Program-made: the position numbers and the translations under genes | Assembly (NCBI GenBank): GCA_013791675.1 | Contig: VMTI01000239.1 | Location: 1-50,902, forward strand | Length of the DNA: 50,902 nucleotides | Direction: 5' to 3' | DNA from: a bacterium | GTDB lineage: Bacteria > CG03 | The notes under the pieces: model-generated | What the model was told of the DNA's origin: nothing | What the model saw: the letters and a program-made list of their open reading frames with translations, nothing else | The model's database searches: none | Part shown: positions 31,901 through 47,229 of the stretch, in pieces | How the letters are laid out: each line of letters begins with the position of its first letter | Position numbering within the stretch: position 1 is the stretch's first letter

Positions 31901-31979
31901 CAACTGCCGACACCCCGGACCTTTACTTTTGGGCTATACTTGTTAAAATTTACGAATGTAGCGATCAGGGAGGATATGA

Positions 31980-32171
31980 ATGAAAGCTAAAACTATTGCC
32001 GTGTTTGTTATGGCGGGGCTGGTATTGATTATTCTTCTGCAGAATACGAAGGTCATTTCTGTGCGGTTCTTCTTCTGGGAATTGAGCATGTCGCAGGTTA
32101 TTTTATTGCCTTTGATCATGTTAGCCGGCTTTCTCGCGGGTTATTTTGTCGCCCGCCTCCGCCGGAATTAA
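31980..32171 (+). CDS. small 2-TM protein, LapA/DUF1049-like, paralogue 1
   Basis: 63 aa with two hydrophobic helices and a basic C-terminus. GGGAGGA RBS. Confidence 0.55.
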   Translation: MKAKTIAVFVMAGLVLIILLQNTKVISVRFFFWELSMSQVILLPLIMLAGFLAGYFVARLRRN

Positions 32172-33127: not shown

Positions 33128-33347
33128 AAAAACTCCTTTTTCTCTTTATCCTGCTTTTTTGATCGCCATCCATTGTAATAAATACAGGAGTTTCTGTCAC
33201 AAAGAGGGAACAGGGACGGTTCTGCCCGCAGTCTCCAAAATTTAAGGCTCTCCGCAGCCTTTGTCTGCGGCGGCTTTTCCTTTTCAGGCAAAAACTATTA
33301 TAATGTAGTCCAATGTACAATATTATTGAAGGGGAGTATCATTCCCA

Positions 33348-33956
33348 GTGCTGATCGAATATTTTAAAAAATACTACAGCAGCGACAGCAGGACCGGCGC
33401 TTATCAAATCGAGATATCTTTAGATAAGTACACGGATGTTTTTAATGAATGGGACCCGGCGCCTTTTAAAAAAAGGGACATCGACCCCGATTTCGAGGAA
33501 TATCTGAAAGGGTGTTCTTCCGATATCCCTCTGAAATATAAGATCGAACTATTTTTATGCCTGCCTGAGGATCAGCATGATCTTCAGAAAGAAAGCATAA
33601 TAAAGGAAGGTATCAAAACCTACTTTCAGTCAAAAATCGAAATCATTAAAAAAACCATCCAATTCATGAACAAAAACACAGGGATATATGCTCTGGTTTC
33701 AGTTGTTTTTCTTATACTGGCGTTATCACTGGAAACTTCTTCAACCAGTAATGTTTTTATAAATCTATTACTTCAGGGTTTGTTCATCGGCGGCTGGGTC
33801 TTTTTATGGGAAGCTTTAAATATATTTGTTTTTCATAAAAGTACAATAAAATATCAGTACAGAGTGTACGAAAGACTTTTGCGCTCGGATATAGAATTCA
33901 AATATATCAGCTTAGCTTGCCCCAGGCCGTTAGCCAACACCCCTGATCTGCTATAA
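33348..33956 (+). CDS. hypothetical membrane protein, paralogue 2
   Basis: 202 aa. The C-terminal 97 aa are identical to paralogue 1. Confidence 0.6.
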   Translation: MLIEYFKKYYSSDSRTGAYQIEISLDKYTDVFNEWDPAPFKKRDIDPDFEEYLKGCSSDIPLKYKIELFLCLPEDQHDLQKESIIKEGIKTYFQSKIEIIKKTIQFMNKNTGIYALVSVVFLILALSLETSSTSNVFINLLLQGLFIGGWVFLWEALNIFVFHKSTIKYQYRVYERLLRSDIEFKYISLACPRPLANTPDLL

Positions 33957-34035
33957 CAACTGCCGGCACCCCGGACTTTTACTTTTAGGCCATACTTGTT
34001 AGAATTTACGGGTGTAGCGATAGGGGAGGATATGA

Positions 34036-34227
34036 ATGAAAGCTAAAACTATTGCCGTGTTTGTTCTGGCGGGGCTGGTATTGATTATTCTGCTGCAGAA
34101 TACGAAGGTCATTTCTTTGCGGTTCTTCTTCTGGGAATTGAGCATGTCGCAGGTTATTTTATTGCCTTTGATCATGTTGGCCGGCTTTCTCGCGGGTTAT
34201 TTTGTCGCCCGCCTCCGCCGGAATTAA
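34036..34227 (+). CDS. small 2-TM LapA/DUF1049-like protein, paralogue 2
   Basis: 63 aa with 2 substitutions versus the 31980 copy. Confidence 0.55.
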   Translation: MKAKTIAVFVLAGLVLIILLQNTKVISLRFFFWELSMSQVILLPLIMLAGFLAGYFVARLRRN

Positions 34228-34507: not shown

Positions 34508-34536
34508 TTGATAAAAGATAGATAATGAATTAAAAT
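34508..34536 (+). promoter_or_regulatory. sigma70-type promoter, probably giving a leaderless mRNA
   Basis: TTGATA, 17-nt spacer, TAAAAT. The -10 ends only 6 nt before ATG 34543, and there is no RBS. Confidence 0.5.
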
Positions 34537-34542: not shown

Positions 34543-35055
34543 ATGCAAGATAACCATGAAAAGCAGATACGTGTAACTCATTACGTTCTCTGGTTTTTAC
34601 TTAATATATTTCTTGGGATTATACCATTTGTAACACCTTTTTTTTCTCCATTAAGAGATGTGAACCAATTGTTTTCAAGTTTTATAGCTTATGCATTTAC
34701 TCTAATTATTATTAACGCTTATCTCTTCGATACATTCGTCAGAACATCCAACGAAATTGTTAAATTTGAAAGAATATGGTTTTGGTTTGCTGTTATCATT
34801 TCATTTATTCTGATTATTTTTTTTGTGTTGTTTAACGTTCTTATGCTTGTATGGAATTTCCCGCAGGCACTGGTGTTATGGGCGTCTTTCTTTCTATTTG
34901 TGTTTACGATTGGATATACATTTCTTTTAAATAAGCCATTGATTCAAAGGGATATAAAAAATGAAATTAATAAATCCATAATAAAGGAAGTTGAAGATAT
35001 AAACAATAACATGTCTGCAATGAAGAAAAAAATAATGGAAAAAGGAACTTGGTAA
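34543..35055 (+). CDS. hypothetical 4-TM membrane protein with a charged C-terminal tail
   Basis: 170 aa with four hydrophobic segments and a Lys/Glu/Asn-rich C-terminus. Lies 14 nt upstream of the DGQHR gene. Confidence 0.6.
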   Translation: MQDNHEKQIRVTHYVLWFLLNIFLGIIPFVTPFFSPLRDVNQLFSSFIAYAFTLIIINAYLFDTFVRTSNEIVKFERIWFWFAVIISFILIIFFVLFNVLMLVWNFPQALVLWASFFLFVFTIGYTFLLNKPLIQRDIKNEINKSIIKEVEDINNNMSAMKKKIMEKGTW

Positions 35056-35069
35056 ATATAGGTGATACA

Positions 35070-36425
35070 ATGATTGAAGAAATAATTAATAAAAATGGCA
35101 AAGAATATTTAAAAGTTGAATTAATACAAATAACTCAAAAAAATAAAAAATTTTATATATCAAAAATATCAGCAAAAAGATTTCTAAAGATATATACTGT
35201 CGAACCAGCCGAGTATGATATTGAAAGACAAGCAAATTTTGCATCTAGTTTTGAAGATGATAGAGAATATTATGAGCATTTAATGAATAATGACAAAGAA
35301 AGAATTAATAAAAAATCATTCCAAAGACCTTCAAATGATACAAGAGTTTCAGAAATCAAAAATTTTTTAAATACTAATGAAATAGGACTTTTTCCTAATT
35401 CAATAATAGTAACTTGTGATTTACTCAACGATAAAATAGGTGAATGTAATATTGCATTTAATGAAGTAGATTCTTTTGAAAACAGGCCAAAATCCGCATA
35501 CCTTGAGGAAATTGATAATAATATATTTTTATATATTCCATATCAAAAAGACTCGGTGCTAGTTATAGACGGGCAACATAGATTGTTAGGTCTAAAAGCT
35601 GCAAGCAAAGAGGTAACAGAAGATTATGAGCTGATTATTACTTTTATTATCGGTTTCGATAGATCAATAGTAGCGAATTTATTTTATACAATAAACTACA
35701 CACAAAAAAGTGTCAATAAATCAGTTTTATATCATCTAATGGGTGAGTTTTCAAGAGAAATAGACAAAATGGCATTTATGCACGGCACAATAAAAATATT
35801 GAACGAAATAGAAGAATCGGCCTTATACAAAAGAATAAAAATGTTAGGTAATGTGCCAAAATCTTTATCCAACGAAGTGCGAAAACAAATGACAATTTCG
35901 CAAGCATTTTTAATAGATTATTTAATTGGATACATATCAAAAGAAGCTAAAAACAGTATTCATCAACCTATTTTCTATTACTATTATAAAAGTGAGAATA
36001 TGAGAATAGAAATTATACAATTTTTATTGAAATATTTTGATAGCATAAGAGAGGCATTACCAGAACAATGGGATAATGTGGATGAATATATTTTAACAAA
36101 AACCGTAGGCCTTGGCGCATGTATAAAATTACTTCCGTTTTTGTATGTAAAAATGTTTATTGACGAATATCAGATGGATCCAAAAAAAATAGTACAAATC
36201 AATGTAAATACACTGAAGAATCATTTAAAAGGAATTGAAACTATCAATTTTTCAAAATCAGGCGAATATGGAAGTGTGGGAAGTGCCGGGAGTTTAAACA
36301 AGTTAAAAAAGCAACTTATTGAAAATATAGATTTCTTTCAGGCGGATAATTATGAGGATTTTTTGAGAGTATTTAAAGAGAACTATCTTAGTAAATACAA
36401 AAAGTGGCTAACTAAATATCTATAG
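35070..36425 (+). CDS. DGQHR-domain protein (DndB/DpdB-type ParB/Srx-fold)
   Basis: Literal VLVIDGQHRLLGLKAA motif plus the downstream FYTINYTQKSVNKS block. ATG 35070 preferred over TTG 35049. Confidence 0.8.
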   Translation: MIEEIINKNGKEYLKVELIQITQKNKKFYISKISAKRFLKIYTVEPAEYDIERQANFASSFEDDREYYEHLMNNDKERINKKSFQRPSNDTRVSEIKNFLNTNEIGLFPNSIIVTCDLLNDKIGECNIAFNEVDSFENRPKSAYLEEIDNNIFLYIPYQKDSVLVIDGQHRLLGLKAASKEVTEDYELIITFIIGFDRSIVANLFYTINYTQKSVNKSVLYHLMGEFSREIDKMAFMHGTIKILNEIEESALYKRIKMLGNVPKSLSNEVRKQMTISQAFLIDYLIGYISKEAKNSIHQPIFYYYYKSENMRIEIIQFLLKYFDSIREALPEQWDNVDEYILTKTVGLGACIKLLPFLYVKMFIDEYQMDPKKIVQINVNTLKNHLKGIETINFSKSGEYGSVGSAGSLNKLKKQLIENIDFFQADNYEDFLRVFKENYLSKYKKWLTKYL

Positions 36426-36624
36426 GAAAAATGGGAACGTATTGGATATTAACTGGCCGAGGGCAAATTTTAGATTTGTTATAGTCCTGTTTTTTTTAGT
36501 GGTCGAGATTTACAAAATAGAATTTCGACAACTAAGCAATATCTCAGTTTTTTTTATTGGAATGTAACTTATATATATTGTTGATCTTATTTCAAGAGGG
36601 TTGATTATCGAATGGAGAATTATT

Positions 36625-37014
36625 ATGGATGGTGTGAAACTAAATCAGAATGAAAAGCATGAATTGCTAAGATTAATTAACAGTTATGCTGACAAAGTAT
36701 CGGAAGATGATATAAAAGAAATAGAGAAAAAAATAAATCAAAAGATTAAAATAATAAAAAAGAACAAAAGATATCCATCGTATGTAAAGCAAATGATACG
36801 TCAGGTGAAATGCTTATATGCCTTATTAAAATCACCCGATATATCCAAAGAAAGATTAAATAGAGTCATATCTGCATTACATTATTTTGTTTTGGCAGAA
36901 GATATGATACCAGATTATATACAAGTTCGGGGTTATCTAGATGATGCATTTGTAATAGATGTTGTATACCAAGAAATGAAAAAAGATATAAGAGAATTAG
37001 AAGGATGTGATTAG
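36625..37014 (+). CDS. DUF1232 (YkvA-like) domain protein
   Basis: C-terminal LHYFVLAEDMIPDYIQVRGYLDDAFVIDVV matches the DUF1232 signature (D.IPD.iP..GY.DD). GGAG RBS 8 nt upstream of ATG 36625. Confidence 0.65.
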   Translation: MDGVKLNQNEKHELLRLINSYADKVSEDDIKEIEKKINQKIKIIKKNKRYPSYVKQMIRQVKCLYALLKSPDISKERLNRVISALHYFVLAEDMIPDYIQVRGYLDDAFVIDVVYQEMKKDIRELEGCD

Positions 37015-37039
37015 AAATTGATAACTTATAGGAGGGGAT

Positions 37040-37585
37040 ATGGAAATTAAATTGATATCTGTCGATGAAATTGAATTAGACAAAACCAATCCAAGGATTG
37101 CTAAATATCTTGAAATGTATGGGAAAGATATAACAGCAGAACAAATATCGCTAGCATTAGGTGTGGGAGATAGTCAGGTAGCTGAGAATGGAACCACATT
37201 TCAGTCATTAAAAGCATCAATAAAAACAAATGGTGGTATAATACATCCAATAATTGTCAATAAAAGATCAGATGGGATTTATAGAGTAGTTGAGGGTAAT
37301 ACAAGGTTAGCTATATATAAAGAATTTAGCAAAGATGAACGCACACATGGCACTTGGAATGAAATACTCACGGTAGTGCATGACGATTTATCTAATGAAC
37401 AAATTGATGCCATCAGACTTCAGGCACATTTAGTAGGACCCCGACCATGGGACCCTTATTCAAAGGCAAAGTACTTGGATTATCTCTATAACTCTGAAAA
37501 TTTACCAATGAGTCAAATAGTTGATTATTGCGGTGGTAGAAAAAATGAGGTGATATCTTATATTGAAGCCTATAAAATGATGTAA
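37040..37585 (+). CDS. ParB/Srx N-terminal-domain protein, N-terminal 181 codons (ends at an in-frame TAA)
   Basis: ELDKTNPR and VVEGNTRLAIYKE motifs. Paralogous to the 39943 ORF. GGAGGGG RBS. Confidence 0.75.
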   Translation: MEIKLISVDEIELDKTNPRIAKYLEMYGKDITAEQISLALGVGDSQVAENGTTFQSLKASIKTNGGIIHPIIVNKRSDGIYRVVEGNTRLAIYKEFSKDERTHGTWNEILTVVHDDLSNEQIDAIRLQAHLVGPRPWDPYSKAKYLDYLYNSENLPMSQIVDYCGGRKNEVISYIEAYKMM

Positions 37586-37648
37586 TCGCACTATCGGCCT
37601 CAATTATCAAGTGATGATGAATTTGATACAACAAGGTTTTCTGCTTTC

Positions 37649-38053
37649 GTGGAGTATCAACACCCTAGAATTAAAGAAGCAATTGTAAGAGCTGGTTTCA
37701 ATGAAGATGATTTTTCTCAATGGGTGAATGATCATAAAATTCATCCTTTATGGACAGTTCGCAGAATACCAAACATATTAGAAAATCCTCGCAGTAAAGA
37801 GGTGTTTCTCACTCATGGTAGAGGTTCAGCAAGAGAAGCATTAAAATTATTAGATAAGCCTTCTGGAGATAAAGTTCTTAAAGACACATCTATGATACAA
37901 TTAGCTCGGGAATTATTGGAAAGAATTTTGGCTTTGCCATATGGGGAAGTTCAACGTTTAAAATCAGATTCATCAAGTGATGAAGTTTTTACATTTTTAG
38001 AAGTGCGAGACCAATTAATTGAATTATGCAGGGATATTCGTAATGAAGAATAG
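37649..38053 (+). CDS. C-terminal continuation of the ParB/Srx-like gene (same frame as 37040)
   Basis: Same reading frame as 37040-37585, and the 63 nt between them have no further stop. Combined length of 337 codons matches the 334-aa paralogue. Confidence 0.6.
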   Translation: MEYQHPRIKEAIVRAGFNEDDFSQWVNDHKIHPLWTVRRIPNILENPRSKEVFLTHGRGSAREALKLLDKPSGDKVLKDTSMIQLARELLERILALPYGEVQRLKSDSSSDEVFTFLEVRDQLIELCRDIRNEE

Positions 38054-38056
38054 GGT

Positions 38057-38464
38057 ATGAGAGAAACAAAAATTCATTCGCAACTGGTTGCATTTACAAA
38101 ACAATGGATAGAAAAGGAGTATGTAAGTAAGAGAGTGGAGATCATTGGAGTAGATTCAGTTACAGAAAATTTTCAAGTATTACCAAATATAAATGGTTTT
38201 ATCCCGGATATTTTCGCTAAATGCTTGGTTAATAATTTACAAATAATTGGCGAGGCAGAATCTTCTAAGGGACTAAATTCCCAACATACAGAACAACAAC
38301 TTAAAGCATTTATCAGATATTGTTTTCTAAACAATGCACATTTAATAGTAGGTGTGCCTTGGGATTTAGTGCCTTATGCTAGGAAATTAATAAAGTTTTA
38401 TATTAGTGAGTGTAAGGCTGAAGGCGTGATTGTGATTATCCCTGACAATATGGCAGTAGGATAA
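38057..38464 (+). CDS. hypothetical 135-aa protein, possible PD-(D/E)xK-like nuclease fold
   Basis: GFIPDIFAK ... QIIGEAESSKG resembles a PD...E-x-E...K arrangement. Weak call. Gaps to the neighbouring genes are 3 nt and 1 nt. Confidence 0.35.
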   Translation: MRETKIHSQLVAFTKQWIEKEYVSKRVEIIGVDSVTENFQVLPNINGFIPDIFAKCLVNNLQIIGEAESSKGLNSQHTEQQLKAFIRYCFLNNAHLIVGVPWDLVPYARKLIKFYISECKAEGVIVIIPDNMAVG

Positions 38465-38465
38465 A

Positions 38466-39956
38466 ATGAAAATATTCTTAAAACAGGAACCAAATTATTT
38501 ACCTAAATATAGTTCTTTTTCTTATCAAGAAGAAGCTGTTAAAGCTATTCAAGATTTAGAATATGCCGCAATATTCCATGAGCAGGGACTCGGGAAAACT
38601 AAAATAGCTATAGATTTAATTTTATATTGGTTCGAGAAGAAGGAAGTAGATACCGTTTTAATTGTAGCGAAGAAAAGTTTAATTAATAACTGGATCAATG
38701 AGTTGGGTGTTCACACGCACATTAAGCCACGAGTGCTAACGCAGAACAAGAAAGCTAATTATTATGTTTTTAATAGCCCTGCAAAAATAATGTTAATAAA
38801 TTATGAAGTTATGAAATCTGAGAATACGAGGATGGAGCTTTTTTTAAAGACTCGAGATGTTGCTGTGATATTGGATGAATCAACGAAAATAAAAAATCCA
38901 GAATCAGATTTAACACAGGAATATTTAAGATTATCAAAATTTTTTAAAAAAAGAATCATTATGACCGGCACACCAGTTGCAAATAGGCCGTATGACATAT
39001 GGTCACAAATATGGTTTCTTGATCAAGGCAAAAGCTTAGGTAATGATTTCAATAATTTTAAAAAAGACTTTGACTTAGCAAACACTTTATACAAGGATAC
39101 TGATTTAAGAGAGAACTTTGAATCACAAATTTCTTTAATTGAAGATAAAATATCAAAATTTACTGTAAGAGAAACAAAAGCTAGTGGGGTATTAGATTTG
39201 CCTGAAAAAATTATTAAAATTATAAAAACAAAATGGGAGATACATCAACGGGAATTATACAACCAAATCAAAGATGAAGAAAAGGCCTTCGTAATTAAAA
39301 ATGGAATTCCCACTGAAGATGATTCCAAAATTATTGTAAAACGACTCTTGCGTTTAGTGCAAGTGGCATCTAATCCAAAATTAGTAGATGACAGTTATAA
39401 GCAGTCTCCCGGAAAGCTGAATTCATTGATTACTATATTAGATGATATAAAAAGGAATGATGAAAAGTGTATCATCTGGACATCTTTTACAGCTAACGCA
39501 GATTGGCTTAAAACGAAGCTTGTAGAATATGGGACGTGTAAGGTACATGGTAAAATACCCATAGATATTAGGAACAGAACAATTAACAATTTTTTGACAG
39601 ATAAAAAATATAGAGTTTTAATAGCCACGCCAGGGGCAGCGAAGGAGGGATTAACCTTAACAGTTGCAAATCATGTAATATTCTATGATAGAAGTTTTAG
39701 TTTAGATGATTACTTACAAGCGCAAGATAGAATTCATAGATATTCACAAAAACGGAAATGTTATGTATATAATTTAATCATGGAAGACTCCATTGACGAA
39801 CTACTTGAAATTATGTTATCCAGTAAACATCTTGCTGCACAATTAACACAAGGGGATATTTCATTAGATTTTTATAAGAGTAAGATTTCTTACAAATATG
39901 GAGAAATAATAAAAGAAATTTTGGGAATTAAGGAGGATGATTATGACAGAGGATGA
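38466..39956 (+). CDS. SNF2-family ATPase/translocase
   Basis: GLGKT (motif I), ILDESTKIKN (II), MTGTPVANRPYDIWSQIWFLD (III), LIATPGAAKEGLTLTVANHVIFYD (V), QAQDRIHRYSQKR (VI). Confidence 0.88.
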   Translation: MKIFLKQEPNYLPKYSSFSYQEEAVKAIQDLEYAAIFHEQGLGKTKIAIDLILYWFEKKEVDTVLIVAKKSLINNWINELGVHTHIKPRVLTQNKKANYYVFNSPAKIMLINYEVMKSENTRMELFLKTRDVAVILDESTKIKNPESDLTQEYLRLSKFFKKRIIMTGTPVANRPYDIWSQIWFLDQGKSLGNDFNNFKKDFDLANTLYKDTDLRENFESQISLIEDKISKFTVRETKASGVLDLPEKIIKIIKTKWEIHQRELYNQIKDEEKAFVIKNGIPTEDDSKIIVKRLLRLVQVASNPKLVDDSYKQSPGKLNSLITILDDIKRNDEKCIIWTSFTANADWLKTKLVEYGTCKVHGKIPIDIRNRTINNFLTDKKYRVLIATPGAAKEGLTLTVANHVIFYDRSFSLDDYLQAQDRIHRYSQKRKCYVYNLIMEDSIDELLEIMLSSKHLAAQLTQGDISLDFYKSKISYKYGEIIKEILGIKEDDYDRG

Positions 39957-40941
39957 TTGGGTAAAAGATACTATTACTCTTCGTGGCGAAGAAATCCCGG
40001 TTAGAGTAGGATATTTAACACAGGCAGAATTAAAATTTTATCCTGAAAATCCTCGGGTTTATACAATATTATCAGCAGGCACAAAAGAGCCGACACAACA
40101 AGAAATAGAAATCCAATTATTGGCAAGAGATAACGTAAAGCAATTGGTGCAATCGATTAAAGCAAATGGGGGATTAACAGACCCCGTTTTTGTATTAGAT
40201 GGCTCAAATATTGTGATAGAAGGCAATAGCCGTTTAGCTGCTTATAGAGCTTTAGCCAGGTCAAATCCAATTCAATGGGGAAAAATTAAATGTAAAGTGT
40301 TACCCAAAGAGATAGATGAGGATAAGATATTTTCATTGTTAGGGGAATATCATATTATAGGCAAGCAAGATTGGATTCCTTACGAACAAGCAGGTTATTT
40401 ATACAGGCGCTGTATATTTCATAAAGTTAAGCCAGAATTAATAGCAAAAGATTTAGGACTAACTGAGTCAAAGGTCAATCACCTAATAGGCGTGTATACT
40501 TTCATGGTAGCAAATGAAGATAATGCACCAGATAGATGGAGTTATTATGACGAGTATATGAAGTCAAGCAAAATAAAGAAAATAAGAAAGAAATATCCGG
40601 AATTTGATGAGATAGTAGTGCAGAAAATAAAATCGCAAGAAATTCCTAAAGCTATCGACGTAAGGGAAGGTTTGAAAAAAATTGCAAATTCAAATGACAA
40701 AATAGTTAAGTCTTTTATAAACGGGAAAGCTGATTTTCAAGAATCTATGGAACATGCAATAAGTGGCGGTTCTGATACGAATTGTTATCAAAAAATCCAA
40801 AAATTTAGATTGTGGTTTGTCGATCCTAAAACAAGAAAAGAAGTATCGAATATGTCTGAACAAGTAACTAAGAAATGCATATATGAGCTTAAAAAAATAA
40901 AACAAGGATTAGAATTTTTACTAAACAGACTGGATGCCTGA
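39943..40941 (+). CDS. ParB/Srx N-terminal-domain protein (intact paralogue)
   Basis: YPENPR and VIEGNSRLAAYRA motifs. AAGGAGG RBS 6 nt upstream of ATG 39943 (alternative ATG at 39937). Overlaps the SNF2 stop. Confidence 0.78.
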   Translation: MTEDDWVKDTITLRGEEIPVRVGYLTQAELKFYPENPRVYTILSAGTKEPTQQEIEIQLLARDNVKQLVQSIKANGGLTDPVFVLDGSNIVIEGNSRLAAYRALARSNPIQWGKIKCKVLPKEIDEDKIFSLLGEYHIIGKQDWIPYEQAGYLYRRCIFHKVKPELIAKDLGLTESKVNHLIGVYTFMVANEDNAPDRWSYYDEYMKSSKIKKIRKKYPEFDEIVVQKIKSQEIPKAIDVREGLKKIANSNDKIVKSFINGKADFQESMEHAISGGSDTNCYQKIQKFRLWFVDPKTRKEVSNMSEQVTKKCIYELKKIKQGLEFLLNRLDA

Positions 40942-40953
40942 TTTTATTAGATT

Positions 40954-42264
40954 ATGAGTAAAAAGATATTATTGATTGAGCCTTCATATAAAAATAAGTA
41001 CCCACCATTGGGCTTAATGAAGATTGCTACATATCATAAAAGCAAAGGGCACGAGGTGGTTTTTTTTAAGGGATGTTCTCCAAATTTAAAATTGCAGGTA
41101 TGGGATAGAATATATATTTCAACACTTTTTACATTTTATTGGGCTAAAACAATTGAAACAATTGAATATTACAGCAATAGCGTAAAAAAAAGTTCTAATA
41201 TTTATGTTGGAGGAGTGATGGCTACATTAATGAAAGATGAAATTAAAAAGCATAGTAATGTAACCGTTATATCAGGTTTATTGAATCAGAATGGTAAATT
41301 AGGGTATAAAGATGATGGAACAATAGACTACTTAACGCCAGATTATTCTATAATTGATCAAGAACATAACCCATTACTAGATTATGTCTATCCTCAGGGA
41401 GATTCATATATTGGATATGCGACTAGAGGATGTATTAGGAAATGTAAATTTTGTGCAGTACCAATCATTGAGCCGGAATTTATGAATGGGCTTTCAATAA
41501 AAAAACAAATAAATTCTATTAAAAAACATTTTGGCGAAAAACGCAATTTACTTTTATTAGATAATAACATTTTGGCATCAGATAGGTTCGAAGAAATAAT
41601 AGAAGAGATTAAAAACCTTGGGTTTGAAAAAAATGCACAATATTCGACAATTAGGAATAATAGAACCGTGTATTTAAAAAGATACGTAGATTTTAATCAA
41701 GGCATAGATGCTAGATTATTGACTAATTCAAAAGTTCAAAAATTGAGTGAAATTGCAATTCAGCCTATCAGAATAGCTTTTGACGACATTAAATTTAAAG
41801 ATATTTATGTTCAAAAGGTTAGACTAGTGGCAGAATATGGAATAAAAGCATTATCAAATTATATACTTTTCAATTTTAATGATACGCCAGAAGATTTTTA
41901 TGAGAGATTAAGAATTAACGTAGAATTAAATTGCGAATTTGAAAACAAAGGATATGCAAGTAGGATATGGTCATTCCCAATGAAATATTCCCCCATTTTT
42001 GGCCCCGAGGCTAAAAATAGAAAGCATGTAGGGAAATATTGGAACAAGGAATATTTACGAGGAGTACAGTGTATACTATTAGCAACACATGGTTTAGTTG
42101 GTCCCAAAATGAAATATTTTGATACCGCCTTTGGTCGCAATTTTGCAGAATTCAAAAAAATTATTACAACACGGCCTGAAGAAAAAATTTTATATAGAAC
42201 TAAAGAATGGCTCAATAGACCTTTTATTCCAAGGCGTCTATTCATAAAAGAGAAGGAAGTGTAA
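40954..42264 (+). CDS. radical SAM protein with an N-terminal B12-binding-like (Rossmann) domain
   Basis: CX3CX2C cluster motif in GYATRGCIRKCKFCAVP. The N-terminus KILLIEPSYKNKYPPLGLMKIATYHKSKGHEVVFF resembles class-B rSAM N-domains. Confidence 0.8.
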   Translation: MSKKILLIEPSYKNKYPPLGLMKIATYHKSKGHEVVFFKGCSPNLKLQVWDRIYISTLFTFYWAKTIETIEYYSNSVKKSSNIYVGGVMATLMKDEIKKHSNVTVISGLLNQNGKLGYKDDGTIDYLTPDYSIIDQEHNPLLDYVYPQGDSYIGYATRGCIRKCKFCAVPIIEPEFMNGLSIKKQINSIKKHFGEKRNLLLLDNNILASDRFEEIIEEIKNLGFEKNAQYSTIRNNRTVYLKRYVDFNQGIDARLLTNSKVQKLSEIAIQPIRIAFDDIKFKDIYVQKVRLVAEYGIKALSNYILFNFNDTPEDFYERLRINVELNCEFENKGYASRIWSFPMKYSPIFGPEAKNRKHVGKYWNKEYLRGVQCILLATHGLVGPKMKYFDTAFGRNFAEFKKIITTRPEEKILYRTKEWLNRPFIPRRLFIKEKEV

Positions 42265-42375: not shown

Positions 42376-43080
42376 ATGAATAAATTGGAAATGTTTTGTA
42401 GGAGAGGGTTTTTTATTGCAATTTTATTTTTATGCAGTTGCGCTATGATAATGCAACAGCCCAGAACGGCATATGAATTAAAAATAAATGCGCAATCAAA
42501 AGCAGAACTTGAAAAACATGGTTTAACGGTGGCTGTTCAGCCGATAATTTTAGAAAATTGTAGTTCGTTTCCGGAAATTTATGCAAAAACAACATATAAA
42601 ACCAGCGAAGGCGAAGTTAGAAATATAGAATTTTCAGTAATAGATATTCCGGCGTTTGCAATTTCAATTACCAATAAGACGGGTGATGTGGTTAAGTTTG
42701 ATAAATGTAATATGAATTTGGAAGATGATTTGGGAAAAAGTTATCAGTCGCAGGACGAACAGGAATTAAATCAAGAAATTGATCAGTTTTTTGCCGATTT
42801 TAATGTCAAGGGATCTATTTTGAATAAGGGGCCTATCGAATCAAAAATTGAGGCATTAAAACTTATGGATAAAAAGTTGATTATATTGCCGAATAAGACA
42901 GAGGATGTGTTTTTAGCGTTTAATGTTATATCGGCAAATATAGAATCTTATATGGAGTTTTTATCAGGGAAAAAATATTTAAAAGTTTCGCTAAACAATA
43001 TTGCAATAAAATCGGATAAGCATATTGGGAGCAATGAAACTGTGAATTTTGAATTTATCTTTGATGTAAATCAATTGTGA
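42376..43080 (+). CDS. hypothetical lipoprotein
   Basis: Signal with a lipobox-like LFLCSC. GGAGGGAG RBS. No recognisable domain. Confidence 0.6.
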   Translation: MNKLEMFCRRGFFIAILFLCSCAMIMQQPRTAYELKINAQSKAELEKHGLTVAVQPIILENCSSFPEIYAKTTYKTSEGEVRNIEFSVIDIPAFAISITNKTGDVVKFDKCNMNLEDDLGKSYQSQDEQELNQEIDQFFADFNVKGSILNKGPIESKIEALKLMDKKLIILPNKTEDVFLAFNVISANIESYMEFLSGKKYLKVSLNNIAIKSDKHIGSNETVNFEFIFDVNQL

Positions 43081-43272
43081 GGCCGCCTAAGTTTCATTTC
43101 CCATTTTAGTACAATATTTGGAATAGAGTTTGTAGAATGATAAAAGATGTTGGAAAGTGTCTCATGTTTTTAGGCGCAAAGCGTCCAATTGTTTTTGAAG
43201 ACATACAATGAGGTGAAAATTATCGGAGAGCTTGTTAAAGTTCTTACTGTAAATTAGAAAATAGGAGGCAAA

Positions 43273-44238
43273 ATGCCGAGAAAAACATCTAAACGTTCCA
43301 ATGATCCTGAATTCCATCGGAAAAATTTGCGGGAATATTTAGCACAGCAAAAAAAAGAAAATTATGAGGCTGGTGTGAATTTAGAAATGTTCATTGAAAA
43401 ATTGTTAACACTTTTTTCAGATACTCCTCCCATAACTTGGCGGTTTCGATTAACAACTTATAAAAATCCGGTGTTTCGTATATATAATCAATCAACACGG
43501 AGATCAGGAGATTTTCTACTCATAACAAACCGCGGATTAACTATTATGCACAAATATTTTGATAAGAGATTCAGAAATCTTTTTCCTAAAAAGAAGACTT
43601 TTTATGGTAATGGGGACACTGCTCGAATAGATTATTCTGTGTTTGATCAAGTAACAAGAAAAAAATATTATGATGCTATAAAATCAATGGTGACAACTAA
43701 TAAGGACTGGGGAATTAACTTCCCGGGTGTTATGGTAGATAGTTTAAGCGAGCAGGATAGTAAACCATATAACGATTTACCCACTACGTATGACAATGGC
43801 GCTAAAGATGATAGTGATTTTTATCAGATTCTAAGATCAAAAATAAGAAAATGGGCCGCGTCAAAAAAAGGTAAGAATAATAAGTGGGTAGAATTTATAC
43901 TTTTGGCTCCAGATTTATTTCATTTATTATGCAAGTTAGTTATAGATGATGACGTTTCATTAGAGGATAAAGTTAAACTCGCACTGGTAATAGTGTATTT
44001 TGTATCCCCGTTAGACTTGATCCCCGAGGGGATACTGGGCCCTATGGCTTATGTTGACGATATCGCTCTGTCGGTGTATGTTTTGAATCGGATTCTTAAC
44101 AATACTAGCCCCGAAGTTCTTAGAAGGCATTGGGTTGGGGAAGAGGATATTTTGACTGTTATAAAACAGATACTTAAAGTTGCTGATCAAATGGTCGGCT
44201 CTGGACTGTGGTCGAAGTTGAAAGGAATGATTAGGTAA
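43273..44238 (+). CDS. protein with a C-terminal DUF1232 (YkvA-like) domain
   Basis: ALVIVYFVSPLDLIPEGILGPMAYVDDIALSVYVLNRIL. AGGAGG RBS. Confidence 0.65.
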   Translation: MPRKTSKRSNDPEFHRKNLREYLAQQKKENYEAGVNLEMFIEKLLTLFSDTPPITWRFRLTTYKNPVFRIYNQSTRRSGDFLLITNRGLTIMHKYFDKRFRNLFPKKKTFYGNGDTARIDYSVFDQVTRKKYYDAIKSMVTTNKDWGINFPGVMVDSLSEQDSKPYNDLPTTYDNGAKDDSDFYQILRSKIRKWAASKKGKNNKWVEFILLAPDLFHLLCKLVIDDDVSLEDKVKLALVIVYFVSPLDLIPEGILGPMAYVDDIALSVYVLNRILNNTSPEVLRRHWVGEEDILTVIKQILKVADQMVGSGLWSKLKGMIR

Positions 44239-44328: not shown

Positions 44329-45309
44329 ATGGCTGTTCAAAGGTGTGAGTGCTGTCACGAACAGATAGCGCCTTATGCAAAATACTGCAATTGGTGCGGG
44401 TATGGACCAAGGAAAAGAAAGCCAAAAGCAGGAGAATATTATTGTAAGCAGTGTCATGAGATGGTGGGGAAAGAGTTCTCATACTGCCCATGGTGCGGAG
44501 AAGACTTTAAGGACGATTACGCCTGGGAACCAGATGATGGGGAGCTTACACCCGCGGTGAAAAGATTTAACTTTGATATTAAATGTCCACAATGTAAATA
44601 CGGTTGTTGTGCTACCATGGATTACTGTCCTTGGTGCGGTACAAAGCTTTCCGATTACAAATTTATTGGTTTTAGTAATTGCGTCGTGTGTGGTAATTCT
44701 GGCCTTGGAAATTGGCAGCATTGTGTTTTTTGCGGAGCATTCTTACAACAAGTCGTACGGCTTTCAGAAAAGAAACGTGTGAGCTTGTCTAAAGAAGCAC
44801 TTTTTTTTCTTACAAGCGCTACAGTGGAAAGGCTAAAGGAAGTGAGGCCTGGGAAATGGTTCTGGAACTCTGACTTGAAGGGTTTTGAGACTCTCGGATT
44901 CCTATTTGGGGAAAAAACTGCCACAGCATATAAGGTTACACACATCTTTCCGATGGCTTCAGCTGAATCTAAGCAGGATAGTGTTGGTTGGAATCCGGAC
45001 GCTTTAAAAGGATTAGTAAACCATATGCAGTTGGAATTGCCTCGAGGTTTAAATCTGATTGGGGACTTTCATAGCCATCCAGATGATAAGAATCCTTCTC
45101 CGAGCATTGTCGATTACAAAGGCACCTTGGGTGATATGGTCTCTATCATTGTAGCGCTCCATAAAACTACAAAAAAGTCTTTCCGCTGGAAGTTTAATAA
45201 GAAAATTGGCATGCTTGAGGGAGTTAAGGGTGGTGTGTATTTTCGCATATGTGCTTATCATAGAAATAAGAAAGGTGTTGCCGAATTGTTGAATATCGTC
45301 GGGGCGTGA
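44329..45309 (+). CDS. four zinc-ribbon repeats fused to a JAB/MPN (JAMM) metallopeptidase-like domain
   Basis: Four CxxC...C(x)WCG units in the N-terminal half. ETLGFLFGE plus GDFHSHPDDKNPSPSIVD gives an E...HxH...S..D JAMM-like pattern, with one extra spacer residue. Confidence 0.7.
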   Translation: MAVQRCECCHEQIAPYAKYCNWCGYGPRKRKPKAGEYYCKQCHEMVGKEFSYCPWCGEDFKDDYAWEPDDGELTPAVKRFNFDIKCPQCKYGCCATMDYCPWCGTKLSDYKFIGFSNCVVCGNSGLGNWQHCVFCGAFLQQVVRLSEKKRVSLSKEALFFLTSATVERLKEVRPGKWFWNSDLKGFETLGFLFGEKTATAYKVTHIFPMASAESKQDSVGWNPDALKGLVNHMQLELPRGLNLIGDFHSHPDDKNPSPSIVDYKGTLGDMVSIIVALHKTTKKSFRWKFNKKIGMLEGVKGGVYFRICAYHRNKKGVAELLNIVGA

Positions 45310-45397
45310 TTTAAAGTTCTCAGCAGAGACGCAGAGGGACGGTGCTTTACAATATGACAACAAAAAATATGAGTAGCTCGCAAAAGTTTCAATAATT

Positions 45398-45673
45398 ATG
45401 AGTGATGAAAAAAACACGAAGTTGCCGGAGACGGTGGATGAGGCAGTATCTCAGATCCTCGACGGAATGAGCGCGGATGATAAAAAATCGCTAAAGAACA
45501 CCCAAAAAAAGGATTTAATAAAGTTTCATTTCGGATGGGGAATGGGAATAAGGAACGGTTTCGGCCTATGGAACCCGGATTCTCCTCTCTTGAAATCTAT
45601 GGGGGAAGTACATCCGGATGATGCTTCAGGTGTAATAATTGAAGCGGTCTGGAAGAAACTTCAAGAAAAGTAA
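45398..45673 (+). CDS. hypothetical 91-aa protein
   Basis: ORF with backbone-like composition. No motif recognised. Confidence 0.45.
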   Translation: MSDEKNTKLPETVDEAVSQILDGMSADDKKSLKNTQKKDLIKFHFGWGMGIRNGFGLWNPDSPLLKSMGEVHPDDASGVIIEAVWKKLQEK

Positions 45674-45772
45674 AATAATTGGCGCCGGTACTTTACACTA
45701 AGACAGAAACTTGCAAAAATCAAAATGGACTGGAGAATTAATGATAAAAATAAAGACGGTGAAAGCGGGCGT

Positions 45773-46291
45773 ATGAGAATAGAGATAATACAGGCGGATA
45801 TAACGCGGCTTAAGGTTGATGCCATCGTCAATGCGGCAAATAAGACTTTGTGCGGGGGCGGCGGAGTGGACGGCGCGATTCACAGAGCCGCCGGAGCCCG
45901 GCTGCTGGCGGAGTGCAGGGCCTTAAACGGCTGTGAAACAGGACATGTGAAAATAACAAAGGGATATGATCTGCCGGCAAAGTGTGTGATCCACGCTGTC
46001 GGGCCCGTGTGGAACGGCGGCAACAGGGATGAAGAAGCTCTGCTGGCCTCCTGTTACAGGGAAAGCATTCTGCTGGCGGATGAGCACAAGCTGAGATCTA
46101 TTGCTTTTCCGGCGATCAGCTGCGGTGTTTACAGGTTCCCGATAGAGAAGGCGGCTGACATCGCAATAAGGTCAACATTGGAGACAGCGGAAAACACTTC
46201 GATCGAACACATCATCTTTGCCTGTTTTGAGGACAGGATCGAGAAAGCTCTCAAGGACAGTTTGTATAATGCGGGACATGAGGAGATATAA
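45773..46291 (+). CDS. ymdB: macro-domain protein (O-acetyl-ADP-ribose deacetylase / ADP-ribose hydrolase type)
   Basis: [34 protein letters not shown] and [11 protein letters not shown]. Internal ATG 45773 gives the family-typical N-terminus (the ORF track starts at 45725). Confidence 0.85.
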
Positions 46292-47050
46292 ATGGGAAAC
46301 TGGTCAAAATTCATAGGGGCGGGATTAGGTTGGGCTCTTGGAGGGCCTATCGGCGCTGTAGCGGGGTATTTTATCGCCGGAGCAATGGATCCGGACGCCG
46401 GCGCTGAACTTCATAACCCTGCCAATCGCGGACACATAGTCTTTACAAATCTCATCGCCTTTATGGCCCTGATTGTTAAGGCGGATAATAAGATCAAAGA
46501 GTCGGAAAAGAAAAGCGCTATGGATATACTGTCCCAAATGTTTAAGCTGGATCATCAGGATCAGGCGTTAAGCAGACAGATGTTTACGAAGTTTCTGAAC
46601 GAACACATAGATGTGGATGAACTCTGCGCCGGTTTTAATAAGATCGCTGACGGGGATATGAAGATTGTTCTTATGGAAATACTTTTTAAAATAGCGTTGA
46701 GCGATATGGAATTTCATCCGTTGGAAGAAAAGCTTATAGACGATATCGCCTCGCAACTTGGTTTCAGCGAATATGAGATCCGTTCAATGAAGGTTTCTTA
46801 TACATCGGCGCACGGGGATGGAGCCAAAACCGCCGGCGGCGCTCAGGATATAAAAAAGTATTATGACATATTGGAACTTCCGTACAACGCTTCTTTGGAC
46901 GAGATTAAAAAAGCTTACAGAAAACTTATGCTGAAATATCATCCGGACAGATTCGCCGGCATAGATCCTGTCGCCCATGAATTAATAAACGCAAAAGCCG
47001 CCGAGATCAACGAAGCGTATAATAAGGTGCAGAGCGCAAAACAGAATTAG
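46292..47050 (+). CDS. djlA: DjlA-like co-chaperone (TM + TerB-like domain + C-terminal J domain)
   Basis: C-terminal [31 protein letters not shown] with HPD. N-terminal Gly-rich TM. Its ATG directly abuts the macro gene's TAA. Confidence 0.72.
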
Positions 47051-47227: not shown

Positions 47228-47229
47228 TG

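What the first reader, a model, noticed from the sequence alone, without database searches (positions are those of the whole stretch)
36625..42264. Candidate undescribed DNA-targeting system: operon of DUF1232, ParB/Srx-like, small nuclease-like ORF, SNF2 ATPase, second ParB/Srx-like and radical SAM
**Seen:** the co-directional ORFs are packed as one unit. Gaps are 25 nt, then a 63-nt in-frame stretch, then 3 nt, 1 nt, a 14-nt overlap and 12 nt.

- Two paralogous proteins of about 335 aa with ParB/Srx N-domain motifs (KTNPR + VVEGNTRLAIY; ENPR + VIEGNSRLAAY) flank an SNF2 ATPase. The ATPase shows GLGKT, LDEST, MTGTPVANRP and QAQDRIHRYSQKR.
- The last gene has a canonical radical-SAM CX3CX2C motif (RGCIRKCKFCAV) behind a B12-binding-like N-domain.
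- A 135-aa ORF has a possible PD...ExE..K signature.

**Established:** ParB/Srx-fold modules (DndB, DpdB, DUF262 of GmrSD/SspE/BrxU) and SNF2 translocases (Dpd, DISARM) recur in DNA-modification-based immunity.

**Missing here:**
- no methyltransferase or restriction endonuclease;
- no dndACDE or sspABCD;
- no dpdA/TGT or preQ0 genes;
- the rSAM does not have a viperin-like layout.

**Inference:** this is a new combination. The rSAM may write a DNA/nucleotide modification or make a nucleotide product. The SNF2 plus ParB-like proteins may scan or clamp DNA, and the small ORF may act as effector.
Basis: partly seen in the sequence, partly recalled or inferred. Interest (0 to 1): 0.9.

Follow-up and report, generated by a model that had tools for sequence, protein, structure and literature searches.

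The report
Undescribed ParB–SNF2–nuclease–radical SAM gene system
The gene cluster is real and recurs, in the same gene order and always beside the same radical SAM enzyme, in dozens of unrelated bacteria and on plasmids, so it is very probably a widespread, still undescribed DNA-targeting immune system, although the copy in this window carries a stop codon in one gene.

Summary
All ORFs, spacings and motifs are confirmed.

- **Conserved core.** ParB-like 1, a 135-aa restriction-endonuclease-fold protein, a compact SNF2 ATPase and ParB-like 2 keep the same order in every related locus where it is visible.
- **Link to the radical SAM (rSAM) enzyme.** 88 loci were retrieved with ParB-like 2 alone. 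An rSAM homologue is adjacent in 67 of the 68 that hold enough DNA to judge.
- **Two modules.** The rSAM gene changes position and strand and does not co-vary with the core. Elsewhere it sits with other nuclease or ATPase modules.
- **Frequent partners.** These are a GHKL ATPase, absent from this window, and a DGQHR/DndB-like protein. The window has the latter at 35049-36425, outside the reported range.
- **DUF1232.** It is not a core gene.
- **No known system fits.** PADLOC, Pfam, NCBIfam, sequence searches of solved structures and ten literature searches gave no match.
- **Best reading.** An R-M-like system in which a cobalamin-type-fold rSAM marks DNA and the ParB/SNF2/nuclease module attacks unmarked DNA. 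This is inferred, not shown.
- **Local copy.** ParB-like 1 has a real GAA→TAA nonsense codon, and the rSAM lacks its C-terminal tail.
- **Test material.** An intact seven-gene version lies on Rhizobium leguminosarum WSM1325 plasmid pR132505.

The parts
37040..38053 (+). ParB/Srx-like protein 1, first gene of the conserved four-gene module. Here it is interrupted by an in-frame TAA at 37583-37585 and split into 181 + 134 aa.
   Evidence: Translation shows the stop. Homologues have Glu at that position. The same stop is present in independent assembly L026. Pfam ParB_N 1.1e-3 and PADLOC PDC-M38A 5e-10. The profile matches Noc 1.4e-4, SbnI and Spo0J. N-P-R and E-G-N-x-R are invariant.
38057..38464 (+). 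135-aa stand-alone protein with a minimal PD-(D/E)xK (restriction-endonuclease) fold; the putative nuclease.
   Evidence: 340 representative clusters, all about 135 aa. Invariant H7, P50-D51, G65-E66-A67 and Q81. Position 68 is K in 39 of 45 sequences and E in 6, including this one. AF2 pLDDT 93.3 with α-βββ-α-β-α topology. Foldseek hits are weak (best E 8.6e-3) but are Hjc resolvases, MunI, McrC, Cas4-like and TnsA.
38466..39956 (+). Compact SNF2-family ATPase/translocase of 496 aa with no accessory domains.
   Evidence: Pfam SNF2-rel_dom 1e-30 and Helicase_C 2e-18. PADLOC ZorD 8e-51 and DpdE 4e-37, over the helicase core only. PDB Sth1 1e-27 and SSO1653 6e-26.
39937..40941 (+). ParB/Srx-like protein 2, a paralogue of protein 1. 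Gene callers start it at 39943.
   Evidence: 1807 homologues. hhalign against the ParB1 profile gives 99.9%, E 1e-33. PADLOC PDC-M38A 7e-10. Sources name homologues 'ParB N-terminal domain-containing protein'.
40954..42264 (+). Radical SAM enzyme with an N-terminal Rossmann-like (B12-binding-like) domain. It forms a separable second module. Here it lacks the C-terminal tail of about 50 aa seen in most homologues.
   Evidence: CX3CX2C (C160/C164/C167) is invariant. The family has at least 7999 members; the closest 120 are 57-72% identical across phyla. AF2 pLDDT 88.9. Foldseek: MgmA 1e-12, MtaB, TsrM, MiaB, AprD4, OxsB; viperin only 5e-4 with TM 0.29. The tail is absent and no frameshift remnant is visible.
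35049..36425 (+). DGQHR/DndB-like (ParB superfamily) protein, a recurrent accessory partner of the rSAM module. It lies outside the finding's range.
   Evidence: NCBIfam DGQHR 7e-41, Pfam DndB 1e-8, PADLOC DpdB 3e-17. It is homologous to the ~335-aa gene that lies between ParB2 and the rSAM in other loci (hmmsearch 4e-27, hhalign 98.5%). 11 of 140 neighbour proteins are DpdB-like. RefSeq names 'DGQHR domain-containing protein' next to the rSAM on Rhizobium and Novosphingobium plasmids.
34543..35055 (+). 170-aa multi-pass membrane-like ORF that overlaps the DGQHR start by 7 nt. It belongs to the same low-GC block; whether it belongs to the system is uncertain.
   Evidence: ORF and overlap. No family hits. 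No homologue in the 120+ related loci. A promoter-like site lies at 34508-34536.
36601..37014 (+).
   Evidence: Pfam DUF1232 1e-7. A homologue sits in the same position in L070 only, 1 of 88 loci.
42376..44238 (+). Two downstream genes in the same low-GC block: a 234-aa ORF with no family, and a 321-aa protein with a C-terminal DUF1232. Probably cargo of the same transferred island rather than part of the system.
   Evidence: GC is 23-36% from 34.5 to 44.2 kb against about 40-55% in the flanks. No homologues in related loci.

Best explanation
A two-module immune system aimed at foreign DNA, built on restriction-modification logic.

**Module R** is ParB-like 1, a small PD-(D/E)xK nuclease, an SNF2 ATPase and ParB-like 2, always in that order. 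I infer that it is a DNA-surveillance and cutting machine. The two paralogous ParB/Srx-type NTP-binding proteins would load on or clamp DNA. The SNF2 motor would translocate. The 135-aa restriction-endonuclease-fold protein would cut.

**Module M** is the radical SAM enzyme. In fuller versions it is flanked by a DGQHR/DndB-like protein and a GHKL ATPase. I infer that it writes a covalent mark on the host's own DNA by radical chemistry, so that module R spares self DNA. The DGQHR protein would help it as DpdB helps DpdA.

**Shown here:** gene content, folds and motifs; strict co-occurrence of the two modules; their independence from each other; horizontal mobility.

**Inferred:** defence function (about 0.7); the rSAM acting on DNA as the writer (about 0.4); the individual roles within module R.

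In this window the system sits on a recently acquired low-GC island. It may be crippled by the nonsense codon in ParB-like 1.
For: 1. **Conservation.** The order ParB1, small ORF, SNF2, ParB2 is the same in every locus where it can be seen, and the flanking genes are unrelated.
2. **Obligate link.** Of 88 loci found with ParB2 alone, 67 show an rSAM homologue. That is 67 of the 68 informative loci.
3. **Two modules.**
   - The rSAM lies directly downstream in 22 loci with no GHKL gene in the held DNA (several of these contigs end soon after the rSAM), downstream with a co-directional GHKL in 22, downstream with a GHKL in convergent orientation in 12, and upstream in 6.
   - Identity of ParB2 to the window tracks SNF2 (Spearman 0.59, p 2e-6) but not the rSAM (-0.18, not significant).
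4. **The asymmetry expected of writer and reader.** Module R almost never occurs without the rSAM. The rSAM does occur without module R, beside other nuclease or ATPase modules:
   - ParB + Mrr_cat (L003);
   - a PbeC/DndD-like ATPase (L002);
   - GHKL + a 283-aa protein (L001);
   - a four-gene Bacteroidota/Bacillota operon;
   - a GHKL paralogue + PIN_8 on pNL1.
5. **The DGQHR partner** parallels DndB and DpdB, both attached to DNA-modification modules.
6. **Phage homologues.** Phages carry solo distant rSAM homologues. In Clostridium phage phiCT453B the gene lies among replication and recombination genes, much as phage orphan methyltransferases do.
7. **rSAM fold.** It matches cobalamin-type methylases and methylthiotransferases, some of which act on RNA, and not viperin.
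8. **Defence context.** Neighbours include pAgo + TIR-APAZ, PD-T7-1, PD-T7-5, QatC and PDC candidates. The system lies on conjugative plasmids and on IMG/VR contigs. Here it sits on a 10-kb low-GC island.
Against: - There are no functional data of any kind.
- The rSAM substrate is unknown. Nothing here shows that the enzyme touches DNA rather than a nucleotide, a protein or a peptide.
- Structural matches of the small nuclease are individually non-significant (best E 8.6e-3). In the window the canonical Lys is Glu, although 6 of 45 homologues share this.
- The ParB-like proteins lack the GERRxR motif of CTP-dependent clamps; they have EGN[T/S]R.
- One well-flanked locus type (L115, L114) has module R plus a DndB-like gene but no rSAM.
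- The neighbour census was not compared with a background rate.
- The local copy has a nonsense codon and a truncated rSAM, so it may not work.
Confidence: 0.4

Rival explanations
1. A defence system in which the rSAM is the effector or signal maker, not a self-marking writer. Module R, or the GHKL/DGQHR proteins, would sense invading DNA. The rSAM would then damage DNA or make an inhibitory nucleotide-type product, following viperin-like or abortive-infection logic.
For: - The only radical SAM defence enzyme named in a February 2026 review is viperin, which makes nucleotide analogues.
- The rSAM is the constant element joined to many different ATPase and DNA-binding modules, which could be alternative sensors.
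- No separate methyltransferase or other writer is needed in this reading.
Against: - Fold and architecture differ from viperin (TM 0.29, and there is an extra N-terminal domain).
- The partner modules themselves carry nucleases (PD-(D/E)xK, Mrr_cat, PIN_8), so an effector is already present.
- Solo homologues in phage genomes are easier to explain as protective writers.
Confidence: 0.2
2. The rSAM acts on a protein or peptide rather than on nucleic acid. It might mature or activate a partner protein, or a small peptide encoded nearby.
For: - The best structural match, MgmA, methylates a protein.
- A conserved ORF of about 90 aa lies between ParB2 and the rSAM in L038, L041, L076, L087 and L113. 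A 56-aa ORF lies there in L030.
Against: - In the window, and in most loci where the rSAM directly follows ParB2, there is no room for such an ORF. The gap is 12 nt here and -39 to about 100 nt elsewhere.
- No precursor-like gene is universal.
Confidence: 0.12
3. It is not an immune system. It would be a maintenance, partition, entry-exclusion or DNA-repair module of mobile elements that happens to travel with defence genes.
For: - ParB-family proteins are classic partition and plasmid-conflict factors.
- Copies lie on conjugative plasmids and on contigs classed as viral.
Against: - No ParA-type partner was seen among the annotated neighbours.
- Many copies are chromosomal, with housekeeping genes in the flanks.
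- The nuclease + SNF2 + ParB-like/DGQHR content and the neighbouring defence genes fit immunity better.
Confidence: 0.1
4. Whatever the family does, the copy in this window is a decaying, non-functional remnant.
For: - A GAA→TAA nonsense codon in ParB-like 1 is present in two independent assemblies.
- The rSAM lacks the C-terminal tail of about 50 aa.
- The island is a recent low-GC acquisition.
Against: - The other four genes are intact and keep every invariant residue.
- The missing tail is the least conserved part of the rSAM, and the 364-aa homologue in L030 also lacks it.
- The N-terminal 181 aa of ParB-like 1 still hold the whole ParB/Srx domain.
Confidence: 0.45

Closest known systems
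Dpd system (7-deazaguanine DNA modification and restriction, dpdA-K)
   Same: A multi-gene system with a DGQHR ParB-superfamily protein (DpdB) that assists a DNA-modifying enzyme, plus SNF2-like helicases (DpdE) on the restriction side. The window's DGQHR hits PADLOC DpdB at 3e-17 and its SNF2 hits DpdE at 4e-37.
   Different: No DpdA/TGT, DpdC or other Dpd model hit among the ORFs scanned. NCBIfam scores are far below the equivalog cut-offs: DpdB 51 against 300, DpdE 38.5 against 500. The candidate writer is a radical SAM enzyme.
Dnd / Ssp / Pbe phosphorothioation systems
   Same: They carry a DndB-type DGQHR protein and join a portable modification module to interchangeable restriction modules. 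One rSAM homologue (L002) sits beside a PbeC/DndD-like ATPase (8e-168).
   Different: No DndA, DndC, DndD, DndE or SspABCD in the island. DGQHR_dnd_1 scores 117 against a cut-off of 450. No other Pbe proteins are present in L002.
Cobalamin-type (class B) radical SAM methyltransferases and methylthiotransferases (MgmA, TsrM, MiaB, MtaB, RimO)
   Same: The same two-domain layout of an N-terminal Rossmann-like domain followed by a radical SAM barrel. Foldseek E values are 1e-12 to 5e-8 with TM about 0.5. MiaB, MtaB and RimO act on RNA or ribosomal protein, so the scaffold can handle macromolecular substrates.
   Different: Sequence identity is 11-16%, and a profile search of solved-structure sequences finds nothing. 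The N-domain has no conserved three-Cys auxiliary cluster. Cobalamin binding is untested.
Prokaryotic viperins
   Same: Radical SAM enzymes used in antiviral defence.
   Different: The structural match is weak (E 5e-4, TM 0.29). Viperins have no N-terminal Rossmann domain and act as single-gene systems that make ddhNTPs.
Translocase-coupled nucleases with SNF2 motors (Zorya ZorD, DISARM DrmD)
   Same: An SNF2 core motor paired with a PD-(D/E)xK-type nuclease. The best PADLOC hit of the SNF2 is ZorD, 8e-51.
   Different: The match covers the helicase core only. There is no ZorA/B/C, no DrmA/B/C and no methyltransferase. The nuclease is a separate 135-aa protein and two ParB-like proteins are added.
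PADLOC candidates PDC-M38 (protein A) and PD-Lambda-5 (protein A)
   Same: The N-terminal ParB-like region is related. The window's ParB proteins score 5e-10 and 7e-10. The ParB next to Mrr_cat and the rSAM in L003 scores 2e-43.
   Different: Only the first 230-300 positions or so of a 715-position model match. None of the rSAM proteins submitted to PADLOC (the window's, L006's, L030's) hits any model, nor do the small nuclease or the L006 and Rhizobium GHKL proteins. The make-up of PDC-M38 could not be checked.

Membership tests
Radical SAM superfamily | CX3CX2C motif that binds the [4Fe-4S] cluster, in a partial TIM barrel | tested here: met
   C160, C164 and C167 are invariant in 30-33 homologues. 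Pfam Radical_SAM scores 29.6 bits against a cut-off of 29.5. The model has pLDDT 88.9 and matches many rSAM structures.
Class B (cobalamin-dependent) radical SAM enzymes | N-terminal Rossmann-like cobalamin-binding domain, and bound cobalamin | tested here: inconclusive
   The domain fold is present (matches to MgmA, TsrM and OxsB). Pfam B12-binding reaches only 1.7e-3, 18.6 bits against 32.1. Cofactor binding cannot be tested with these tools, and AprD4-type enzymes share the fold.
Methylthiotransferases (MiaB/RimO/MtaB) | Second [4Fe-4S] cluster held by three conserved Cys in the N-terminal domain, plus a C-terminal TRAM domain | tested here: not met
   No conserved Cys triad in residues 1-150. 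NCBIfam RimO scores 19.7 against 357. No TRAM hit.
Prokaryotic viperin | Single-domain viperin fold and sequence family | tested here: not met
   No PADLOC hit for the rSAM. Foldseek to viperin gives E 5e-4 with TM 0.29.
ParB/Srx superfamily (ParB-like 1 and 2) | N-terminal ParB/Srx domain with a conserved Gly-x-x-Arg phosphate-binding motif | tested here: met
   The ParB1 profile matches Noc 1.4e-4, SbnI 4e-4 and Spo0J 0.018, and aligns EGNTR with GERR. ParB1 against ParB2 gives 99.9%. NPR and EGNxR are invariant. Pfam ParB_N is below its cut-off for ParB1 (19.3 against 26.3) and absent for ParB2.
CTP-dependent ParB clamps (ParB, Noc, KorB) | GERRxR motif, a parS-type site, and a ParA partner for the partition ParBs | tested here: not met
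   The motif is EGN[T/S]R. NCBIfam Noc scores 16 against 315. No ParA-like gene appears among the annotated neighbours.
SNF2 family ATPases | SNF2-type helicase motifs in two RecA-like lobes | tested here: met
   SNF2-rel_dom 1e-30 and Helicase_C 2e-18. Sth1 1e-27 and SSO1653 6e-26. GLGKT, DEST and QAQDR are present.
PD-(D/E)xK nucleases (135-aa ORF) | αβββαβ core carrying D ... (D/E)-x-K | tested here: inconclusive
   P50-D51 and E66-A67 are invariant. Position 68 is K in 39 of 45 sequences and E here. The topology fits. Foldseek hits are to restriction-endonuclease-fold proteins, but the best E is 8.6e-3. No Pfam hit for the window protein.
Dpd system | DpdA (TGT-like), DpdB and DpdC, plus preQ0 synthesis genes | tested here: not met
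   Only DpdB-like and DpdE-like similarity, both far below the NCBIfam cut-offs. No DpdA or DpdC hit among the ten ORFs from 34.5 to 44.2 kb.
Dnd / Ssp / Pbe systems | DndC or SspD PAPS-reductase-like enzyme, with DndD/E or SspB/C | tested here: not met
   No such hits in the island. Only a generic DGQHR domain is found.
Classical restriction-modification (types I-III) | A SAM-dependent DNA methyltransferase subunit | tested here: not met
   No methyltransferase among the island ORFs. Only 1 of 140 neighbour proteins in related loci is a type II MTase.
Zorya (ZorD) and DISARM (DrmD) | ZorA/B/C, or DrmA/B/C with a methyltransferase, alongside the SNF2 protein | tested here: not met
   Only the SNF2 core matches. 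NCBIfam ZorD scores 97.7 against 1500 and DrmD 47 against 950. No partner genes are present.

The most novel reading that the evidence does not exclude
A new class of DNA-modification-based immunity. A cobalamin-type-fold radical SAM enzyme, helped by a DGQHR protein and a GHKL ATPase, writes a so far unknown covalent mark on DNA by radical chemistry. This portable writer is shared by at least five different nuclease-bearing reader modules. The ParB / restriction-endonuclease-fold / SNF2 / ParB module seen in this window is one of them.
Probability: 0.35. Interest if true: 0.95.

Novelty: new variant of a known kind. Interest (0 to 1): 0.8.

Why it matters
- **Scale.** The radical SAM family has at least 7999 members in the protein collection. 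The ParB-like 2 family has 1807 members, and 536 metagenome stretches encode a relative. All of it is tied to nuclease and ATPase modules.
- **Status.** Nothing checked here describes it: PADLOC-DB v2.0.0 (2023), a Pfam-A copy whose newest models date from 2025, NCBIfam release 20.0 (June 2026), or the paper library searched (to mid-2026).
- **If the writer reading is right.** It would reveal a new enzymatic DNA modification and a new self/non-self marking chemistry. Viperin would then no longer be the only radical SAM enzyme known in bacterial immunity.
- **If the effector reading is right.** It would be a new antiviral radical SAM activity.
- **It is testable now.** Cultured strains carry intact versions: Rhizobium leguminosarum WSM1325 pR132505, Novosphingobium aromaticivorans pNL1, and Mesorhizobium, Bradyrhizobium and Agrobacterium plasmids.

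Tried and rejected
- **Known-system calls.** PADLOC, Pfam and NCBIfam on ten island ORFs gave only domain-level or sub-threshold hits.
- **Literature.** Ten full-text searches found no description: radical SAM with SNF2, ParB, DndB, GHKL, MORC, defence islands or antiphage; PDC-M38; DGQHR. The Dnd reappraisal paper, the MORC paper, the NTP-dependent conflict-systems paper (PMC7159879), the 2013 defence-systems review, the ProPhylo paper and a 2026 review do not mention the combination either.
- **Sequence searches of solved structures.** Nothing for the rSAM profile, the ParB2 profile or the DGQHR protein, and only chance hits for the small ORF.
- **First context test.** Plain tblastn of the window proteins against 25 genome loci found with the rSAM suggested no co-occurrence. 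That result was misleading. Those loci carry other partner modules. The co-occurrence appeared with profile searches of loci retrieved with ParB2.
- **Word-indexed homologue search for the small ORF.** It found only itself. The exhaustive search was needed.
- **Frameshift in the short rSAM.** No remnant of the tail is visible in any frame.
- **Other checks without a useful result.** Foldseek against viral structures, the promoter/terminator scan, the repeat scan and the tRNA scan added nothing decisive. A search for other Pbe components beside the L002 rSAM found none.
- **DUF1232 as a core gene.** Rejected: 1 of 88 loci.

Full report
**1. Observation**

Domain searches confirm DUF1232, a full SNF2 core, and a radical SAM domain that sits just at Pfam's cut-off with a weak B12-binding match.

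The ParB assignment is weak in Pfam: 1.1e-3 for protein 1 and nothing for protein 2. Profile searches make it solid.
- A profile of ParB-like 1 homologues matches the ParB-family proteins Noc (1.4e-4), SbnI and Spo0J. It aligns EGNTR with their GERR motif.
- The two paralogue families match each other at 99.9% probability.

One correction is needed. The '63-nt in-frame stretch' follows a genuine TAA at 37583-37585, at a position where intact homologues have Glu. An independent assembly that differs by 7 SNPs over 18 kb carries the same stop, so it is not an assembly error.

**2. Conservation**

The rSAM has a very large family. At least 7999 proteins scored below 1e-3, which is the cap of that search. 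The closest 120 are 57-72% identical although they come from Atribacteria, Thermodesulfovibrio, Spirochaetota, Bacillota and other groups.

Contigs that carry the closest relatives show the same five genes, ParB1 / small ORF / SNF2 / ParB2 / rSAM, between completely different flanks.

I then tested the link without bias towards the rSAM, by searching with ParB-like 2 alone.
- The family has 1807 homologues.
- 536 metagenome stretches encode a relative. The best 80 were kept, and 8 IMG/VR loci were added.
- A profile census of these 88 loci found the four-gene order unchanged wherever it was visible.
- 67 loci had an rSAM homologue. That is 67 of the 68 loci in which either the rSAM was seen or at least 3 kb lay on both sides.
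- The one clear exception type (L115, L114) keeps a DndB-like gene after ParB2 but has an unknown 276-aa protein in place of the rSAM.

**3. Two modules**

The rSAM is not fixed in the operon.

| Position of the rSAM relative to ParB2 | Loci |
|---|---|
| Directly downstream (<300 nt), same strand, no GHKL seen in the held DNA (the window's type) | 22 |
| Downstream with a co-directional GHKL (HATPase_c_3) ATPase | 22 (13 of them separated from ParB2 by 300 nt or more) |
| Downstream with a GHKL, convergent orientation | 12 |
| Downstream after a gap of 300 nt or more, no GHKL seen | 5 |
| Upstream of the module | 6 |

- In several of the loci counted as lacking a GHKL gene the contig ends within about 1-3 kb of ParB2, so a GHKL gene could lie beyond the held DNA. 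The count is an upper bound.
- In about a dozen loci the gap between ParB2 and the rSAM holds a gene of about 335 aa. This gene is a DGQHR/DndB-like protein, homologous to the window's ORF at 35049-36425 (hmmsearch 4e-27, hhalign 98.5%). DpdB-like proteins are the commonest PADLOC hit among neighbours, 11 of 140.
- Across loci, identity to the window's ParB2 correlates with identity to its SNF2 (Spearman 0.59, p 2e-6). It does not correlate with identity to its rSAM (-0.18). For example, L030 and L032 share 69% rSAM identity but only 28-33% ParB2 identity.

The four-gene block and the rSAM block are therefore exchanged independently of each other.

**4. The rSAM in other company**

Of 25 loci in reference genomes found with the rSAM as query, none has the four-gene block.

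| Locus | Genes beside the rSAM homologue |
|---|---|
| About 18 Bacteroidota/Bacillota loci | ~395-aa unknown, ~555-aa ATPase-like, GHKL, then a long rSAM |
| L001 | GHKL, a 283-aa protein |
| L003 | ParB, an Mrr_cat nuclease |
| L002 | PbeC/DndD-like ATPase (8e-168), a small ORF |
| N. aromaticivorans pNL1 | PIN_8 protein, GHKL paralogue, DGQHR, rSAM, GHKL |
| R. leguminosarum pR132505 | The full ParB1 / small / SNF2 / ParB2 / DGQHR / rSAM / GHKL set, then the PIN_8 + GHKL-paralogue pair |

- RefSeq names for these genes are all generic.
- Phages carry solo, distant homologues at 25-35% identity. In Clostridium phage phiCT453B the gene lies among replication and recombination genes. In Marinitoga camini virus 1 it lies beside HerA and an exonuclease gene.

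**5. The individual proteins**

*rSAM*
- The model is confident (pLDDT 88.9).
- It is closest to two-domain enzymes with a Rossmann-like N-domain: MgmA, MtaB, TsrM, MiaB, AprD4, OxsB and RimO. E values run from 1e-12 to 5e-8 with TM about 0.5. Viperin is far behind.
- There is no conserved auxiliary Cys triad.
- A profile search of solved-structure sequences finds nothing.

*135-aa protein*
- It has 340 representative clusters, all stand-alone and about 135 aa.
- H7, P50-D51, G65-E66-A67 and Q81 are invariant. Position 68 is Lys in 39 of 45 sequences and Glu in 6, including this one.
- The model is confident (pLDDT 93.3) with α-βββ-α-β-α topology.
- Its structural neighbours are restriction-endonuclease-fold proteins (Hjc, MunI, McrC, Cas4-like, TnsA), but none reaches significance.

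*SNF2*
- It is an ordinary SNF2 core without extra domains.

**6. Setting in the window**

- The genes lie in a block of 23-36% GC from 34.5 to 44.2 kb. The flanks are about 40-55% GC and carry housekeeping genes such as AcrB, an outer-membrane efflux protein, CorA and a DEAD-box helicase.
- The block also holds the membrane-like ORF fused by overlap to the DGQHR gene, two DUF1232 proteins and a 234-aa ORF. Of these four, only the small DUF1232 recurs in related loci, and only once, in L070.
- The rSAM lacks the poorly conserved C-terminal tail of about 50 aa, and no frameshift remnant is visible.

**7. Interpretation**

The strongest clue is an asymmetry. The ParB/nuclease/SNF2/ParB block is almost never found without the rSAM. 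The rSAM, however, is found with several alternative nuclease-bearing blocks and alone in phages.

That is the pattern of a modification (writer) module and interchangeable restriction (reader) modules, as in Dnd, Ssp, Pbe and Dpd. Phage orphan methyltransferases show the same pattern. The DGQHR partner strengthens the parallel with DndB and DpdB. I therefore favour an R-M-like mechanism with a radical SAM writer.

Nothing here shows that the enzyme acts on DNA. An effector role, a protein or peptide substrate, and a non-immune role in mobile elements all remain open. I rate defence at about 0.7 and the writer model at about 0.4.

**8. Novelty**

- None of the rSAM proteins submitted to PADLOC-DB v2.0.0 hits any model, and neither do the small nuclease or the GHKL proteins tested.
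- NCBIfam release 20.0 gives only sub-threshold hits.
- Ten literature searches and the papers read give no description. A 2026 review names viperins as the radical SAM defence enzymes.
- The logic resembles known modification-based systems, so I class it as a new variant of a known kind. The more radical reading is given separately as the novel case.

Noticed in passing
window 31256-32171 and 33312-34227: A direct duplication about 97% identical over the 300 nt compared. Each copy carries a 202-aa ORF and a 63-aa LapA-domain membrane ORF. The copies are 2056 nt apart, just upstream of the low-GC island.
   Followed up: partly
window 30241-30352: Five tandem 18-nt units encode SGDRK(S/P) repeats in the C-terminal tail of the DEAD-box helicase ORF at 29035-30378.
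   Followed up: no
window 44329-49132: Downstream of the island lies a run of genes of a stress or conflict type: a zinc-ribbon + Prok-JAB protein, DUF6794, a Macro domain protein, a DjlA/TerB/DnaJ protein and a YhcG-type PD-(D/E)xK protein. A sister contig (L027) carries an AbiEii-like gene further on.
   Followed up: no
window 20401-28306: A second lower-GC stretch (36-41%) holds a 1947-aa Kelch/Ig/fn3 repeat protein, flanked by a bactofilin-like ORF and a UPF0164 ORF.
   Followed up: no
L004-L025 (e.g. L006, Dysgonomonas macrotermitis DSM 27370, 5572-11953): A separate conserved four-gene operon is present in about 18 Bacteroidota/Bacillota genomes: a ~395-aa unknown, a ~555-aa protein with weak mad8/HerA similarity, a GHKL ATPase and a ~655-aa rSAM homologue with an insertion and a C-terminal extension. 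It has no PADLOC system call either.
   Followed up: partly
L125 12212-15728 (R. leguminosarum pR132505) and L126 4084-7637 (N. aromaticivorans pNL1): A pair made of a PIN_8-domain protein (638-651 aa) and a second GHKL paralogue (~531 aa) sits next to the DGQHR / rSAM / GHKL triad on both plasmids. It may be an alternative nuclease module.
   Followed up: partly
L038 1767-2051, L041 5654-5956, L076 11070-11342, L087 4383-4658, L113 1242-1517: A conserved ORF of about 90 aa (ISIYF...D.T.AF...LY.K...GS...NYIK) lies between ParB-like 2 and the rSAM in some loci. It has no counterpart in the window.
   Followed up: no
L103 6010-9979: In one related locus the SNF2 gene is split by an insertion of about 2.4 kb that carries two opposite-strand ORFs of 253 and 494 aa. 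It looks like a mobile-element insertion.
   Followed up: no
L030 and L031, minus strand just after the cassette: One contig carries the five-gene cassette and, convergent to it, a second shorter rSAM homologue (364 aa) with a 599-aa GHKL ATPase. That gives two rSAM paralogues side by side.
   Followed up: partly
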